A DNA stretch of 64,000 bases from Escherichia coli (GCF_045037415.1 NZ_CP173440.1), one strand, 5' to 3'. Counted from the first letter of the stretch, positions 32,643 through 49,306 are shown. Translations and numbers: made by a program. The notes: a model not told the origin generated them from the letters alone.

Positions 32643-33251
32643 TCAGGCGTCAGATTGATTCCTGGAATTGATAAATGCATTTAAGCATTCCTGCATTCCC
32701 CAGGATGCCTGCCACTTGCAAAGAAAAAGGTACTTTCTCTCAAGGTTCTCCATCTCTTGAAGATTTTCCGCTGAAAAATACGTCCATATATCATGCCAGC
32801 ATACATCATAAGTAACCCCTGCGGGTGGTTGGTACGTCATGGCATCTGCACAGATAATGTCCACACGCTTATCATCTATAAAGGCCGGAGCGACAAGGTT
32901 GATAACGTCTTGCTCTTTTTCAATAACGGTTACGTGGGTCACATCCTTTTTTTGCAAAATGACATGGAGAACCATCCCCAGTCCAAGCCCGTTGATAAGC
33001 ACGCGCCCCGTTGCCCGCTCAATAAATTCCATGCACGTGTTAATTTCCATCGGTGTATTGGACATGACGACTTCGCCATTATTTGAGAGACGACGATACT
33101 TACCAGGTGGAATGTATTCATTCTGATTGCCTGTTACGTCGGCCCTGAGAGAGAGCATATGCGCTTTCTCCTGAGAGATGGTGAATGTATCCAATGTCCA
33201 CGATCCGGATTTACCGTCCGTAACAGGGAGATCGTAAAAAAGAGTTCCCAT
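32643..33251 (-). CDS. putative AdoMet-dependent methyltransferase-fold protein
   Basis: VLINGLGLGMV glycine-rich loop followed by acidic residues, as in Rossmann-fold methyltransferases; weak call. Confidence 0.35.
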   Translation of the reverse strand: MGTLFYDLPVTDGKSGSWTLDTFTISQEKAHMLSLRADVTGNQNEYIPPGKYRRLSNNGEVVMSNTPMEINTCMEFIERATGRVLINGLGLGMVLHVILQKKDVTHVTVIEKEQDVINLVAPAFIDDKRVDIICADAMTYQPPAGVTYDVCWHDIWTYFSAENLQEMENLERKYLFLCKWQASWGMQECLNAFINSRNQSDA

Positions 33252-33320
33252 TTTCAGTCCTGTAGTGTCGGAGCGTTACTTACCGGAAATTACCACAAAC
33301 CGGCTACTTTTGCAGGAATA

Positions 33321-33770
33321 TCAGTCGCTGAAATGTGTCTTTTGCCGCCGCCACACAATGTAACGTTCAAGACACCCGCACATGATGGCCGTATCACGGG
33401 CTCCCTGAGCGGCCACGGCAGCTGACGTACGCCGTCCACCATTTCCTGTGAACTCGCGGGAGGATGCGTCCTGTAGCGTTGTCTTATCGCCATTCATCCG
33501 GTTCAGGAGCGCGTACAAATCGTCGAGGCTGAGGTGTTTCCAGCGAACGTCTGACAACCTGATTTCCTCCTGATTTGCTTTCTCATACCGTTCGTCACGG
33601 GTTAAAAGCTCACTTGGCCGGGCTTTCCTGAATGCTTGTGTTGCTTGTTCGACAGCACTTTCTTTACTGCTGGCAAAGAGATAATTTGCGCCGATGGAAT
33701 AACGGTATTTCCAGCGACTGCCGACCTTTCTGAGAAGGTCAAATTCAATCAACTCCTTTTCCGTTACCAT
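33321..33770 (-). CDS. hypothetical protein
   Basis: 149-aa ORF. Confidence 0.45.
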   Translation of the reverse strand: MVTEKELIEFDLLRKVGSRWKYRYSIGANYLFASSKESAVEQATQAFRKARPSELLTRDERYEKANQEEIRLSDVRWKHLSLDDLYALLNRMNGDKTTLQDASSREFTGNGGRRTSAAVAAQGARDTAIMCGCLERYIVWRRQKTHFSD

Positions 33771-33779
33771 GATTTAACC

Positions 33780-33965
33780 TTAATTAATGAATGATTTTGA
33801 CGATTCAAGAATAAGGTTTTCAATGTCACGTTTTGCTGCCTGACGTGCGCGATGTTTATCGGCACGCAGTACACTACTGTAGGCATTATTTTTACGGTAT
33901 CCCCTGGAACGACATAATCCACAGGTGCAACCAGTTACAGAATAAGACAAGCCATAAGGTTTCAT
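33780..33965 (-). CDS. small basic Cys-containing protein
   Basis: MKPYGLSYSVTGCTCGLCRSRGYRK; start taken at the internal Met. Confidence 0.3.
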   Translation of the reverse strand: MKPYGLSYSVTGCTCGLCRSRGYRKNNAYSSVLRADKHRARQAAKRDIENLILESSKSFIN

Positions 33966-34221
33966 ACCTTTCCCTCTTTTTAAATATCCGCATCGCGATA
34001 AGTATATTAAATAAAACAGATAGTGCAAGTACCGTAATTAATATTAATCACACCCGGAGCGGCCGGTATAATTCATAATTTCTGAAGCATTATGTAGACC
34101 GGCCAGATAAAACCATCCTGAAAACAGTTTTCTTTTGATTGAAATGTTAGCGGTTAATTGGTCCATATTTTTTACTGGCAGGGAGGGAAACAGTCCAGCA
34201 TGCTCTTCGCTTTTACGAAGT

Positions 34222-34989
34222 CTATTCCGCCGGTGTGTGAATATGAAAGCGTGGTTCTCCATCTTCAGGGTCAGGCCAGTTCCGGGATTTGTTCACTTTC
34301 AGCTTTTCGATCATCGCCCGGGTAATCTGCTCGTCAGTGATACCGGCTCGGCGTTGGGCATCCCAGAGTAAAAATTGCATATCAGCCCATTCAGCATAGT
34401 TACCGGGCGCTTCTGCGGTTTCCAGCGCCTCGAGACTGAGATGCTTCAGCGGGCCAGTCGGGCCAACATCGCCGAATGTATCCTGAGACCACTCGGCGTG
34501 GTCACGGCGGATCTGGTCGCGTTCAGGAGATGGAGAGGCATAGAGATAGAGTGCTATATCAGAACCGTCTAATATGGGTTCAGGCCAGATTTCCCCAAAA
34601 CCATCTTCGCACTGAAGCTCAGTGCGGGATGTGTATACCACCGGCCTATTATTTTTCGCAAACCCGCGATGTTGCAGGAGTTCGCGGATAACGGCGGCAA
34701 TAACACCAGGCGCAGCCAAACGGCCAAACTCGCATTGATAATTTGGGTCGGGGTGACAAACCGATTCTTCCGCATACCAGAGCATGTTCGCCAGGTAATC
34801 ATCCTCAACTGGCGTAGAAGTTTCGGCCTGACGTCGTTTTTTTAACTCTCGGGCCATTATTGCTGCCTGATGGGGTGAAACCACTTCGCCAGCGATGATC
34901 CGGTCCAGTTCATCGACTGAAAAGGGATAATCATCCGGAAGAGTGTGGGTCTCTATATTGAGTAGGGCTTTGTTACTTTCGTGGCTCAT
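34222..34989 (-). CDS. hypothetical protein
   Basis: 255-aa ORF. Confidence 0.5.
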   Translation of the reverse strand: MSHESNKALLNIETHTLPDDYPFSVDELDRIIAGEVVSPHQAAIMARELKKRRQAETSTPVEDDYLANMLWYAEESVCHPDPNYQCEFGRLAAPGVIAAVIRELLQHRGFAKNNRPVVYTSRTELQCEDGFGEIWPEPILDGSDIALYLYASPSPERDQIRRDHAEWSQDTFGDVGPTGPLKHLSLEALETAEAPGNYAEWADMQFLLWDAQRRAGITDEQITRAMIEKLKVNKSRNWPDPEDGEPRFHIHTPAE

Positions 34990-35052
34990 AGTGTGCTCCA
35001 GTTATTTTCGATCACTACGCCGAAGGTTAAAGCTAATCGCATCGTTTTGCCT

Positions 35053-47492: not shown

Positions 47493-47504
47493 GAGTGGGT
47501 TTTA

Positions 47505-47984
47505 TCAGTGCAGCATCAATTCCTGAGCCGTAGATTGCCCGCGATGCCCAGCATCAATAACCGCCATCATCGGCTCAGCAATACCGACTACATCCTCGTC
47601 AATACCAGCACAACGACAGACCACATCAATGATCGCCAGAAGTTCATTAAGCGTCATCGGCTCATCAATCTTCACTTGCGTAATATCTTTCTTAATAATC
47701 GCATCACGGGCAGCACTATGCCGTTTCTGGTTATATAGCCAGACTGCATGGGTATTAGGTACCTGTTCACCGGGTGCGGAATTGTCAGTGTCTGAGTCTG
47801 CTACAAAAATGCCAACCTGGTTTTCAATCCCTGCGCACTGGCAGATTGAATTTGTCAGCTCCAGAAGCTGATTCAGTGTAGGAGAACAGAGCAACTCAAT
47901 TGATGATGTTGCACGGGCCTTAATAGCGCTTGCTACAGTGTCATGATGTTTTTTGCTGTAAAACGACACGGTCATGTTACTCAT
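47505..47984 (-). CDS. hypothetical protein with internal repeat
   Basis: two similar segments (LNQLLELTNSICQCAGIENQ / LNELLAIIDVVCRCAGIDED). Confidence 0.5.
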   Translation of the reverse strand: MSNMTVSFYSKKHHDTVASAIKARATSSIELLCSPTLNQLLELTNSICQCAGIENQVGIFVADSDTDNSAPGEQVPNTHAVWLYNQKRHSAARDAIIKKDITQVKIDEPMTLNELLAIIDVVCRCAGIDEDVVGIAEPMMAVIDAGHRGQSTAQELMLH

Positions 47985-48067
47985 GGTGTTTTTCCTTCTA
48001 TGCTTTTCCGTAAATTGACTGAGTGGCCTGTATGTAGAGAGTGGAACAGGCCAGTACAGGTAATGCT

Positions 48068-48274
48068 TTACTGACCGGTAGTTTTGCCTTCCTGAGGTTC
48101 GTCTTTAGAAGACGCCCTTTTTTTCAGTCCAAAACGACCAGCAAAGTAGGCCAGCGCCAGGATGGCGTATACCTGCCAGAAAGGCCAGTCCGAAAGGAAA
48201 TAGCCCATGTGGTAGGAGAGGATCAACAGCCCGATGATGGGTACCAGTAATGCTTCCCGTTTAATGTTTTTCAT
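48068..48274 (-). CDS. small membrane protein
   Basis: 68 aa; motif copy at 48285-48295 directly upstream. Confidence 0.45.
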   Translation of the reverse strand: MKNIKREALLVPIIGLLILSYHMGYFLSDWPFWQVYAILALAYFAGRFGLKKRASSKDEPQEGKTTGQ

Positions 48275-48351
48275 TTCTACCTCAAAAGTGACTTTTATTG
48301 GTTAATTTGTGCCTGTGGCATAGTAATGACACTATTCTTTACTTCTCTCTC

Positions 48352-48882
48352 CTAGTCGCAGTTCACCCCCACTACAAAAAGGACCAGCCCAGTGGTGACA
48401 TTAAGGCTTCTGAGATCGGTCTGTTCTGTGGTTAAGGCCCTGAGATTGGCGTCAGTCGCATCCAAGGGGTATAGCGCCTGTGTCAACAGGAGAGCATTTT
48501 CATCCGAGCAGGTTAAACCGAGAGAAATAACGTATGACTGATAATTCAGCCGTACCCGCTTCTGTTCCTCGTCGCCCGCGCAGTTAAAATAATCGAGCGA
48601 GCGTGGCTCAAATGCCTCATCTGCAATGCTCTCCAGCACCCCATGTTTTTGAGGCATGATCTGCAATGGTAATACCGCTGCCGGGAACTGGTTACAACTG
48701 TGGCCTCCGCATTGTTCTTCGCCAAGGAACCAGTCCTGGGAAGGTGACTCCGGAACTATCTTCGTTGAAGCCAGCACCAAAGCAGGGTATTGATCGTCAT
48801 GACAGAACCAGGGGGCAAAATGCTTCTCCGAAATATCGGATATATTTCTTCCATACAGAATCGGTGGAATAGAGGATTTCAT
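48352..48882 (-). CDS. hypothetical protein
   Basis: 176-aa ORF. Confidence 0.5.
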   Translation of the reverse strand: MKSSIPPILYGRNISDISEKHFAPWFCHDDQYPALVLASTKIVPESPSQDWFLGEEQCGGHSCNQFPAAVLPLQIMPQKHGVLESIADEAFEPRSLDYFNCAGDEEQKRVRLNYQSYVISLGLTCSDENALLLTQALYPLDATDANLRALTTEQTDLRSLNVTTGLVLFVVGVNCD

Positions 48883-49015
48883 TACTCTGACCTGCCTTAA
48901 TTTTTGATTATCTTTCTAACCAGATATCTTCTGCTTGTCCGAAACATAATTCACTCTTCCATACATAACCACCATATACTTGAAGTGTATCCTGATATGC
49001 AGTGGAGATTCTGGC

Positions 49016-49306
49016 TTAAGACGATAAATTGTCTTTTGAATAAAATTTATTTTCCTGCATGCTGGATACGGCGAATTTTCTGTTTATCTGGTACTGAAAC
49101 TGGCGGCGTGCAGCCAGGGAATAGGATATGTATTCGTGCCCGCACTGCCTGCATTTACACATATAACCTGTACCTTTAGTTGCGAGTACTGATACATCTC
49201 CCCATCCGTTATGATCCAGACCCGCCCTTAAACGGTGCCAGTTTTTTTCATAGCAGGGCAAGCAGCGTAGGCTTCGATTTCTTCGGCAACTTCCACGTTC
49301 ACCCAT
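49016..49306 (-). CDS. hypothetical Cys-rich protein
   Basis: CKCRQCGHEY. Confidence 0.35.
   Translation of the reverse strand: MGERGSCRRNRSLRCLPCYEKNWHRLRAGLDHNGWGDVSVLATKGTGYMCKCRQCGHEYISYSLAARRQFQYQINRKFAVSSMQENKFYSKDNLSS

What the first reader, a model, noticed from the sequence alone, without database searches (positions are those of the whole stretch)
32643..49306. Unidirectional island of about 30 small genes punctuated by the operator motif
From 32643 to 49306 nearly every gene is on the minus strand, short (60-330 aa) and unrecognisable, with many Cys-rich zinc-ribbon-like proteins, acidic proteins and tightly coupled start/stop overlaps. Motif copies sit at the heads of several sub-operons (37265, 38666, 43469, 45234, 47479, 48285). 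This resembles plasmid leading-region islands, which established work shows are enriched in anti-restriction and other anti-defence genes, but I cannot assign any member by eye.
Basis: inference. Interest (0 to 1): 0.55.

Follow-up and report, generated by a model that had tools for sequence, protein, structure and literature searches.

The report
Small-gene island under ParB-like plasmid regulon
The island is a real one-directional block of about 33 small genes on a Klebsiella resistance/virulence megaplasmid, but it lies far from the transfer origin. Its "operator" looks like the plasmid-wide binding site of a KorB-like (ParB-family) regulator encoded next door.

Summary
**Observation: confirmed.** Window 32643-49306 holds 33 minus-strand ORFs of 46-299 aa and no plus-strand gene. 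The palindrome RAAAGTNACTTTY occurs 28 times in the window against 0.08 expected. Seven copies lie in the island, all intergenic.

**Interpretation: partly supported.**
- The window is an IncFIB(pNDM-Mar)/IncHI1B, MOBH Klebsiella megaplasmid.
- The mobI-relaxase module, and so the inferred oriT, is about 55 kb away on the relaxase side.
- The segment carrying the island is inverted between isolates.
- No ArdA, KlcA, PsiB, SSB or Acr family matches, and no Frpo-like hairpins were found.
- Two adjacent genes (DUF4942/YdiA and DUF5983) do belong to families published as leading-region-enriched.
- 19 of 33 proteins match phage families. The two whose phage context was checked sit in the lambdoid early-left (Ea) region.

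**Main new result.**
- The motif is not island-specific. There are 87 copies on the plasmid backbone and none in acquired modules.
- Six copies cluster upstream of an orphan 413-aa ParB-family gene (29775-31016). Its model best matches RK2 KorB.
- Homologues down to 38% identity, in unrelated contigs, carry the same palindrome.

**Best model.** A KorB-like regulon controls nine short island operons. An establishment or anti-defence role is inferred, not shown.

The parts
32643..49306 (-). The island: 33 co-directional small ORFs in about nine transcription units
   Evidence: The sequence is 100% identical in more than 200 PLSDB Klebsiella plasmids.
29775..31016 (-). Orphan ParB/KorB-like gene (413 aa), candidate binder of the motif
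   Evidence: phrog_1033 'ParB-like partition protein', 1.2e-23. A profile of 50 homologues hits ParB/Spo0J/Noc at 7e-17 and KorB at 3e-5 in the PDB. HTH_ParB matches 35 of 50 homologues. The AF2 model (pLDDT 81.8) has RK2 KorB 8qa9 as top Foldseek hit, E 7e-8. There is no adjacent ParA.
31127..31885 (.). Cluster of six motif copies (31127, 31339, 31393, 31429, 31581, 31875) upstream of the ParB-like gene
   Evidence: In 87%-identical relatives all six sites are retained (five exact, one with one mismatch). The flanks diverge and the central base varies.
37265..37275 (.). Motif copy, centre 109 bp upstream of the ATG of 36955-37161; about 10 bp upstream of a TTGGTC-17-GATAAT promoter-like site
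38666..38676 (.). Motif copy, centre 115 bp upstream of the ATG of 37657-38556
39777..39787 (.).
43469..43479 (.). Motif copy, centre 107 bp upstream of the ATG of 43116-43367
45234..45244 (.). Motif copy 26 bp upstream of the -35 of the DUF4942 operon promoter; centre 113 bp from the ATG
   Evidence: Conserved at the same spacing in relative L007.
47479..47489 (.). Motif copy 15 bp upstream of the start of the 129-aa membrane-protein ORF
48285..48295 (.). Motif copy 16 bp upstream of the start of the paralogous 68-aa membrane-protein ORF
49579..49589 (.). Motif copy upstream of the first island unit (promoter repeat at 49362)
45171..45244 (-). One of five dispersed promoter-like repeats, AAATAGGGGCTTGnnn-N15-GTATCCTGG. 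The others are at 31064-31137, 35712-35735, 39582-39605 and 49362-49385.
   Evidence: (families D2, D5)
44257..45126 (-). DUF4942 / YdiA-family gene, head of a three-gene unit
43883..44203 (-). DUF5983 gene
   Evidence: Pfam 2.6e-21, assigned to this ORF via L009. Leading-region family 72 in PMC11541004.
33780..43367 (-). Variable, phage-like middle of the island
   Evidence: Largely absent or replaced in relatives L007-L009. PHROG hits are concentrated here. The two genes whose phage context was checked have homologues in the lambdoid early-left operon or in EaA/Ea22 proteins.
34222..34989 (-). dATP/dGTP pyrophosphohydrolase (DUF550, MazG-like) domain protein
   Evidence: Pfam 8e-39; PHROG hits at 1e-44 to 1e-60
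32643..33251 (-). Small class I SAM-methyltransferase-like protein of unknown substrate
   Evidence: phrog_15480, 8e-37. Only weak spermidine-synthase and rRNA-methylase hits. No DNA-methyltransferase family matches.
45515..46096 (-). DUF6012 gene, followed by a terminator-like hairpin at 45479-45501
52234..53385 (-). RepB (IncFIB pNDM-Mar) initiator, co-directional with and upstream of the island
   Evidence: Iteron-like repeats at 51774-51999 (family D13). Motif copies at 51306, 51477, 51594 and 52161.
49824..51163 (-). ISL3-family (ISCfr12-like) insertion between repB and the island; not part of the system
   Evidence: 34-nt inverted repeats (pair I1), a 406-aa ORF, and absence from NZ_CP117741.1
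26700..27704 (-). IS4321 copy. With the inverted copy at 53366-54370 it bounds the inverted segment that carries the island.

Best explanation
The island is a mosaic accessory-gene array in the conserved backbone of IncFIB(pNDM-Mar)/IncHI1B Klebsiella megaplasmids. In the common arrangement the order is repB origin, island, a 54-aa gene, an orphan ParB/KorB-like gene, type IV-A3 CRISPR-Cas, then umuDC. All of these are co-directional.

The island is organised as about nine short sigma-70 operons. Eight are preceded by the 13-bp palindrome RAAAGTNACTTTY, usually 10-26 bp upstream of the -35 hexamer.

I propose that this palindrome is the binding or loading site of the adjacent ParB-family protein, acting as a KorB-like global regulator of the whole backbone. 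The site also occurs at repB, upstream of mobI at the inferred oriT, and in the tra regions.

Under this model island expression depends on regulator occupancy, not on distance from oriT. The genes would be expressed when the plasmid enters a cell that lacks the regulator and be damped afterwards.

The cargo is a mix of phage early-region (Ea-type) genes and two leading-region families (YdiA/DUF4942 and DUF5983). It therefore most likely serves establishment or host and defence interference.

Shown: the anatomy, the motif statistics and conservation, the ParB/KorB fold, the co-occurrence of protein family and motif, and the gene-family content.

Inferred: actual binding, the sign of regulation, induction on entry, and any anti-defence activity.
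For: Motif statistics and distribution:
- 28 copies against 0.08 expected.
- 87 copies in the first 276 kb of NZ_CP117741.1. All are in backbone segments; none is in the MDR or virulence modules.
- All seven island copies are intergenic. The motif centre lies 107-116 bp from the ATG at five promoters and also upstream of mobI.

Link to the ParB-like gene:
- Six copies cluster upstream of it. In relatives the arms are conserved and the central base is free.
- ParB/KorB membership.
- Homologues of 45-47% and 38% identity, in unrelated contigs, again have AAAGTNACTTT as the only repeated palindrome. Copies lie 38-257 bp upstream of the gene.

Cargo:
- DUF4942 and DUF5983 are leading-region families.
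- 19 of 33 proteins are in PHROGs, with Ea-region context for the two checked.
- The middle of the island turns over between relatives.

Precedents: KorB/OB (PMC11790492); BisD and HerB/YfjB.
Against: - No binding data exist.
- The protein itself misses Pfam ParB_N and KorB thresholds. There is no KorA-like partner or adjacent ParA.
- Box III of the CTPase motif looks divergent by eye; this was not tested.
- Motif centres at about -51 to -66 suit an activator as well as a repressor.
- Many copies elsewhere on the plasmid lie inside genes. That fits a loading or partition-type site as well as an operator.
- One island unit (promoter at 35712) has no exact motif.
- No island protein matches a characterised anti-defence family. 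The methyltransferase-like protein is not a recognisable DNA methylase. DUF4942 is not a methyltransferase fold.
Confidence: 0.5

Rival explanations
1. One reading: a true leading-region anti-defence island. It would enter recipients first and be transcribed from the T-strand.
For: The array is unidirectional. DUF4942 and DUF5983 are leading-region families. A ParB-like gene and umuDC lie next door, and those functional categories also appear in the published table. In the common arrangement the island is transcribed towards the oriT side. That is the orientation of the IncI1-type leading genes in L010.
Against: The island is 55-72 kb from mobI and the inferred oriT, on the relaxase side, with more than 40 genes between. 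An IS4321-bounded inversion flips it in some isolates. It has no ArdA, KlcA, PsiB or SSB, and no ssDNA-promoter-like hairpins. The non-relaxase side of the inferred oriT carries traF/H/G.
Confidence: 0.12
2. The palindromes are centromere-, Noc- or loading-type sites for plasmid partition or compaction, or for long-range activation as with BisD. They would not be repressive operators. The island carries them only because the whole backbone does, and its genes are unrelated phage-derived cargo.
For: Motif density in the island equals that of the backbone. Many copies lie inside tra genes. The cluster next to the parB-like gene resembles a parS array. ParB-like activators exist (BisD, cited). 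Motif positions of -51 to -66 suit activation.
Against: The plasmid already has a ParA/ParB pair. There is no ParA beside this gene. In the island all copies are intergenic and sit at a fixed distance from starts and promoters. The best structural match is the regulator KorB.
Confidence: 0.25
3. The island is a degenerate fragment of a prophage or phage-plasmid early region captured by the plasmid. It would have no current role in conjugation or defence.
For: 19 of 33 proteins are in PHROG families. Homologues lie in the lambdoid early-left operon and in EaA/Ea22 proteins. Content between relatives is mosaic.
Against: There are no structural, lysis, integrase or repressor genes. The reading frames are intact and tightly packed. 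Conserved promoters carry the plasmid's own motif. The flanking modules are conserved across relatives of 72-91% identity.
Confidence: 0.13

Closest known systems
KorB-OB global regulon of IncP plasmid RK2 (with its kil/kle/klc operons)
   Same: A ParB-family HTH protein, and RK2 KorB is the best structural match. The site is a 13-bp odd-length palindrome with a central base (OB is TTTAGCGGCTAAA). Sites are dispersed over the plasmid at replication, transfer and small-gene operons, some just upstream of the -35 hexamer and others far from any promoter.
   Different: Only about 15-16% identity to KorB. The protein itself does not reach the Pfam KorB domain threshold. No korA or incC (ParA) partner is adjacent. 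There are about 87 or more sites rather than about a dozen (the RK2 number is from my own knowledge). The operator sequence differs. Repression is untested.
Plasmid leading-region anti-defence islands (F, IncI1; Samuel et al. 2024, PMC11541004)
   Same: A unidirectional array of small genes. It shares the YdiA/DUF4942 and DUF5983 families, with a ParB-like gene and umuDC nearby.
   Different: It is not adjacent to oriT. It lacks ArdA, KlcA, PsiB, SSB and Frpo elements. Its orientation varies between isolates.
Non-canonical ParB-like regulators of mobile elements: HerB/YfjB (F leading region) and BisD (ICEclc)
   Same: An orphan ParB-like protein with an HTH, encoded among establishment or transfer genes. 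The ParB homology spans roughly residues 36-245, as reported for HerB.
   Different: HerB is much longer, has a distinct dimerisation domain and shows no sequence-specific site. Here there is a sharply defined palindrome on the plasmid itself. BisD is an activator. No direct sequence comparison with either protein was possible.
Lambdoid phage early-left (pL) non-essential 'ea' region
   Same: A run of small, co-directional, mostly uncharacterised genes. Homologues have 43-77% identity. One island protein has the DUF550 domain; identical plasmid records annotate a DUF550 or 'Phage EaA protein' gene in this stretch.
   Different: No N, cIII, gam, exo or int context. The genes are driven by plasmid-type promoters carrying the plasmid's own palindrome.

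Membership tests
Plasmid leading region (sensu Samuel et al. 2024) | Lies within about the first 30 ORFs from oriT, on the side away from the relaxase | tested here: not met
   mobI, the MobH relaxase and traD are at 176.7-183.0 kb of NZ_CP117741.1. The island is at 110.8-127.5 kb on the relaxase side. oriT is inferred by analogy with IncA/C, where it lies immediately upstream of mobI (PMC5587640).
Plasmid leading region (sensu Samuel et al. 2024) | Genes oriented so that they can be transcribed from the transferred T-strand | not testable with these tools
   The nic site and transfer polarity of MobI/MOBH origins are unknown. The island's orientation is inverted in the window and in NZ_CP117741.1 relative to most records.
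Plasmid leading region (sensu Samuel et al. 2024) | Contains known anti-defence, SOS-inhibition or SSB genes (ArdA, ArdB/KlcA, PsiA/B, SSB, Acr) | tested here: not met
   A Pfam scan of all 33 proteins gave no such family at E of 0.1 or better. NCBIfam on the 17 island proteins tested was negative.
Plasmid leading region (sensu Samuel et al. 2024) | Contains gene families statistically enriched in leading regions | tested here: met
   DUF4942/YdiA: families 24 and 76, median positions 1 and 6. DUF5983: family 72, median position 2. A DUF4942 homologue lies beside nikA and the relaxase, with psiB, psiA and ardA.
Plasmid leading region (sensu Samuel et al. 2024) | Frpo/ssi-type ssDNA promoter hairpins | tested here: not met
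   A sliding 240-nt DNA-fold scan of 29.5-53.5 kb on both strands gave no outlier beyond z = -3.1. This was an energy scan only, with no Frpo sequence model.
ParB/KorB superfamily (the 413-aa neighbour) | ParB/Srx N-terminal domain plus ParB-type HTH | tested here: met
   phrog_1033, 1.2e-23. Profile against the PDB: ParB/Spo0J/Noc 7e-17 and KorB 3e-5. HTH_ParB in 35 of 50 homologues. Foldseek top hit KorB 8qa9, then ParB and Noc. G101 and R104 of the GxxRxxA box are invariant.
KorB-type global regulator | Dispersed palindromic operators on the plasmid, several at promoters, including its own | tested here: met
   Motif and gene family co-occur in five independent contexts.
KorB-type global regulator | Pfam KorB domain; KorA and IncC (ParA) partners | tested here: not met
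   The protein itself has no Pfam hit at E of 0.001 or better. The KorB domain appears in only 2-10 of 50 homologues. No ParA or small HTH gene is adjacent.
KorB-type global regulator | Sequence-specific binding, CTP-dependent clamping and transcriptional repression | not testable with these tools
   Needs EMSA or ChIP, CTP-binding assays and reporter assays.
Orphan DNA methyltransferase (anti-restriction) | A DNA methyltransferase catalytic domain (N6/N4 or C5 families) | tested here: not met
Anti-phage defence systems (PADLOC) | Match to a defence-system protein model | tested here: not met
   Ten island proteins (149-299 aa, including the eight largest) gave one borderline hit at E about 0.01. 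The other 23 were not tested.
Phage early-region accessory genes (PHROGs; lambdoid Ea) | Homologues in phage genomes, located in the early-left non-essential region | tested here: met
   19 of 33 proteins hit PHROGs. The two proteins whose phage context was checked map to Stx and mEp460 early-left operons and to EaA/Ea22 proteins. A third protein (37463-37660) matched only two Enterobacter phage records.

The most novel reading that the evidence does not exclude
An orphan ParB-family, possibly CTP-switch, protein uses about 90 or more dispersed 13-bp palindromes as loading sites. Through them it controls the whole backbone of the globally spreading pNDM-MAR-type hypervirulence/MDR Klebsiella megaplasmids. 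Controlled regions would include replication, transfer and a fast-turnover island of phage- and leading-region-derived genes. Those genes would be induced on entry into a naive cell wherever they lie relative to oriT. The same protein-site pair recurs in unrelated elements down to 38% identity, which suggests a widespread, undescribed KorB-like regulon family.
Probability: 0.3. Interest if true: 0.75.

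Novelty: new variant of a known kind. Interest (0 to 1): 0.55.

Why it matters
These plasmids carry NDM and CTX-M resistance genes and aerobactin virulence genes in high-risk Klebsiella clones. About 30 backbone genes here have no assigned function.

If one ParB/KorB-like protein controls the backbone through a defined 13-bp site, there is a single testable handle on replication, transfer and establishment genes, through ChIP, a knock-out or a decoy site.

It would also show that leading-region-type gene sets can be deployed by regulator-based induction rather than by position next to oriT. 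That would extend the leading-region concept to MOBH/IncHI-like megaplasmids.

Tried and rejected
- **Known anti-defence or defence families.** Pfam on all 33 proteins, NCBIfam on 17 and PADLOC on ten gave no ArdA, KlcA, PsiB, SSB, Acr or defence hit.
- **PDB sequence searches.** The methyltransferase-like, DUF4942 and DUF550 proteins gave nothing.
- **DUF4942 as a methyltransferase.** Rejected: the AF2 model has no solved-fold relative, and AFDB returns only YdiA/DUF4942 proteins.
- **The 202-aa protein as an orphan DNA methylase.** Not supported.
- **Frpo-like ssDNA promoters.** None in the energy scan.
- **Rfam.** Only a group II intron; no hok/sok or antisense RNA.
- **Generic sigma-70 scan.** Not enriched over shuffles, so uninformative. 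A hand-identified promoter repeat family was used instead.
- **Literature.** No paper in the library contains the motif in a plasmid context. None describes a KorB-like system in IncHI1B or links pNDM-MAR to a leading region.
- **Cluster-name look-up.** Only 'hypothetical' or spurious names such as 'phage tail protein' and 'dUTPase'.
- **Motif as a restriction or methylation target.** Rejected, because the motif is strongly enriched, 11-13 bp long and placed at promoters.
- **TATCCTGG in the promoter repeats as a MOBP-type nic core (YATCCTG).** Considered unlikely. It sits 16 nt (17 in one copy) after a -35-like hexamer in all five copies, and no MOBP relaxase was annotated in the 276 kb of the plasmid examined.
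- **My greedy ORF caller.** It over-called genes, so its intergenic counts for the motif are lower bounds only.

Full report
**Identity of the window.** The island (32643-49306) is 100% identical over its full length in more than 200 Klebsiella plasmids of 300-420 kb. They are typed IncFIB/IncHI1B, relaxase MOBH, MPF_F. NZ_CP117741.1 is collinear with the window.

Most other records carry the segment from repB through the island to the small genes beyond the ParB-like gene in the opposite orientation. In the window this segment is bounded by two inverted IS4321 copies, at 26700-27704 and 53366-54370. Only one PLSDB record spans either junction, so the window's arrangement is the rare one.

Relatives without IS4321 (L007-L009) give the ancestral order: island, a 54-aa gene, the ParB-like gene, five small genes, type IV-A3 CRISPR-Cas, umuDC. 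All are co-directional.

- There are 30 RefSeq CDS plus three further ORFs, all on the minus strand and 46-299 aa long.
- Four gene pairs overlap at start/stop.
- Six proteins carry CxxC pairs, and nine have a net charge of -9 or lower.
- The palindrome AAAGTNACTTT occurs 28 times in the window against 0.08 expected. The extended consensus is RAAAGTNACTTTY.
- The island has seven copies. An eighth lies at 49579. All are intergenic.
- From gaps, promoter repeats and a terminator-like hairpin I infer nine transcription units, eight of them preceded by the motif.
- Five dispersed promoter-like repeats (AAATAGGGGCTTGnnn-N15-GTATCCTGG) head units at 31087, 35712, 39582, 45194 and 49362.
- Motif centres lie 107-116 bp from the ATG at 31127, 37265, 38666, 43469 and 45234, that is 10-26 bp upstream of the -35.

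**The motif belongs to the plasmid, not to the island.**
- The first 276 kb of NZ_CP117741.1 hold 87 exact copies.
- All lie in conserved backbone segments (0-140, 170-205 and 240-250 kb).
- None lies in the MDR module (140-170 kb) or the metabolic and aerobactin modules.
- Copies occur downstream of repB among the iterons, twice upstream of mobI (one at 117 bp from its ATG), before other tra-region genes, and also inside genes.
- Island density (0.42 per kb) equals the backbone average.

**Who binds it.** Six copies cluster at 31127-31885, directly upstream of a 413-aa ORF (29775-31016).
- *Sequence.* The protein alone misses Pfam and NCBIfam thresholds but hits phrog_1033, 'ParB-like partition protein', at 1.2e-23. 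An exhaustive search found 262 distant relatives. A profile of 50 of them matches ParB/Spo0J/Noc in the PDB at 7e-17 to 4e-14 and KorB at 3e-5. HTH_ParB matches 35 of the 50.
- *Structure.* The AF2 model (pLDDT 81.8) has RK2 KorB (8qa9) as its best Foldseek match, E 7e-8 and TM 0.64. ParB and Noc follow.
- *Context.* No ParA is adjacent, and the plasmid has a separate ParA/ParB pair.
- *Conservation.* In 87%-identical relatives the palindrome arms are conserved while the flanks diverge and the central base changes.
- *Co-occurrence.* Homologues of 45-47% identity (L011, L013, L014) and 38% identity (L017, L018) have otherwise unrelated neighbours. In each, AAAGTNACTTT is again the only repeated palindrome. 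Copies lie 38-257 bp upstream of the gene, where about 0.02 would be expected by chance.

This is strong comparative evidence for a cognate protein-site pair. Binding itself is inferred.

**Leading-region test.**
- *Where oriT should be.* The only relaxase module is mobI, a hypothetical gene, the MobH relaxase and traD, at 176.7-183.0 kb of NZ_CP117741.1. In IncA/C plasmids oriT lies immediately upstream of mobI, and its nic site and polarity are unknown (PMC5587640). The equivalent region here carries GTACTAATGAAA repeats and two ParB boxes.
- *Distance.* The island is 55-72 kb away on the relaxase side, beyond CRISPR-Cas, umuDC and an MDR insert. I estimate about 30-50 kb in plasmids without those inserts. 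The published leading-region enrichment covers about the first 30 ORFs from oriT (PMC11541004).
- *Other hallmarks.* No classical anti-defence or SOS-inhibition family is present. There are no Frpo-like hairpins and no hok/sok.
- *My recollection.* SXT mobilises chromosomal DNA from the side away from traI, which would make this side the trailing one. That is memory, not a test.

- DUF4942 (44257-45126) and the adjacent DUF5983 (43883-44203) belong to families in Supplementary Table 1 of Samuel et al. 2024. All are on the T-strand:

| Family | Annotation | Members | Median ORF position from oriT |
|---|---|---|---|
| 24 | DUF4942; YdiA; 'methyltransferase' | 2171 | 1 |
| 76 | DUF4942 | 551 | 6 |
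| 72 | DUF5983 | 618 | 2 |

- The most populous DUF4942 cluster among the homologues found (47% identity) lies in the order psiB, psiA, ardA, several small genes, DUF4942, nikA, relaxase.
- A 38% relative of the ParB-like gene sits in a unidirectional island with HigB, an N6/N4 methyltransferase and PsiA.
- F-plasmid YfjB/HerB is a leading-region ParB-like protein induced on entry (PMC13370423).

So the region from repB to umuDC has a partly leading-region-like gene set that is uncoupled from the present oriT.

**Cargo.**
- 19 of 33 proteins match PHROG families; all but the methyltransferase family are of unknown function.
- The 83-aa protein (43116-43367) is 74% identical to genes in the early-left operon of mEp460 and Stx phages.
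- The 128-aa protein (39808-40194) matches Stx-phage early-left genes and parts of EaA/Ea22 proteins.
- 34222-34989 carries a dATP/dGTP pyrophosphohydrolase (DUF550) domain.
- The 202-aa protein is a small SAM-methyltransferase-like enzyme with no DNA-methylase signature.
- DUF4942 has a helical N-terminal part and a small alpha/beta C-terminal part, with no solved-structure relative.
- Between relatives the flanks are conserved at 66-91% identity. The middle (33780-43367) is largely deleted or replaced, once with a GmrSD_N fragment.

**Model.** The closest working analogue is the RK2 KorB-OB regulon. KorB is a ParB-family clamp that binds 13-bp odd palindromes at and away from promoters of replication, transfer and small 'kil'-type operons (PMC11790492).

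I propose that the 413-aa protein plays this role here. The island would then be one of its regulated modules, expressed when the regulator is absent, as on entry into a new host. Its probable role would be in establishment or host and defence interference.

My estimates:
- About 0.7 that the protein binds the motif.
- About 0.5 that it controls island transcription. The sign is uncertain, because BisD-type activation fits the -51 to -66 positions equally well.
- About 0.3-0.35 that the cargo is anti-defence.

**Verdict.** The feature is real. The leading-region reading is only partly right: it fits some of the gene families but not the position and not the named anti-defence families. The operator is better explained as a plasmid-wide ParB/KorB-like regulon, which I did not find described in the searchable literature.

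Noticed in passing
window 26700-27704 and 53366-54370: Two inverted IS4321 copies bound a roughly 26-kb segment: small genes, ParB-like gene, island, repB. The segment is inverted relative to most related plasmids. Only NZ_CP117741.1 in PLSDB shares both junctions.
   Followed up: partly
window 40287-40610: PLSDB/RGI labels this 107-aa hypothetical protein 'AAC(3)-Ib/AAC(6')-Ib3, 100% identity'. It has no acetyltransferase domain in Pfam and matches only a PHROG of unknown function. This is probably a reference-database artefact that propagates a false resistance call across hundreds of records.
   Followed up: partly
window 55423-60397: Type IV-A3 CRISPR-Cas operon (Cas6-like, DinG-type helicase, Csf genes). 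In all relatives examined it lies a few small genes downstream of the ParB-like gene. One motif copy (57074) is inside the helicase gene.
   Followed up: no
window 47080-47469 and 48068-48274: Two paralogous small membrane proteins, 43% identical over the transmembrane segment. Each has the palindrome 15-16 bp upstream of its start codon, a different placement from the promoter-upstream copies.
   Followed up: partly
L003 7280-7520 (NZ_CP117741.1 about 183.3-183.5 kb): The mobI-upstream region, the inferred oriT, contains at least six direct and inverted copies of GTACTAATGAAA-like repeats plus two ParB boxes. These are candidate relaxosome (MobI) binding sites.
   Followed up: no
window about 50000-52000: The cumulative GC-skew minimum of the window coincides with the iteron-like repeats (51774-51999) downstream of repB. 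Skew follows gene orientation on both sides, so replication and transcription effects cannot be separated.
   Followed up: no
window 31064-31137, 39582-39605, 45171-45244, 49362-49385: The conserved -10-like element of the promoter repeats reads GTATCCTGG in three of the five copies; 35712 has GTATTCTGG and 49362 GTATAAT. GTATCCTGG contains the MOBP-type nic core YATCCTG. I judged it a promoter because of its fixed spacing to a -35 hexamer, but trans-mobilisation was not excluded.
   Followed up: partly
window 49824-51163: An ISL3-family (ISCfr12-like) element with 34-nt inverted repeats is inserted between the island and repB. It is absent from NZ_CP117741.1.
   Followed up: partly
window 35133-35192 and 35361-35420: The acidic 174-aa protein (35053-35577) contains an internal tandem duplication, with 60-nt repeats 87% identical. 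It has no family match.
   Followed up: no
L007 5075-5596; L011 1216-1731: In relatives, the variable part of the island or the ParB-like neighbourhood carries a short GmrSD_N (DUF262) ORF. RES-domain and AbiJ-like genes are also nearby. This suggests the hotspot exchanges defence as well as counter-defence genes.
   Followed up: no
window 61771-63588: A group II intron (Rfam RF02005, 186 bits) with its ltrA reverse transcriptase lies between the CRISPR-Cas locus and umuDC. A second copy is elsewhere on the plasmid (NZ_CP117741.1 4165-5652).
   Followed up: no
window 7360-10079 and 19278-23971: Outside the island there is a C5 cytosine methyltransferase convergent with a type II endonuclease gene. 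There is also a separate site-specific DNA methyltransferase followed by a 1126-aa ORF. These are the plasmid's recognisable restriction-modification or orphan-methylase genes.
   Followed up: no
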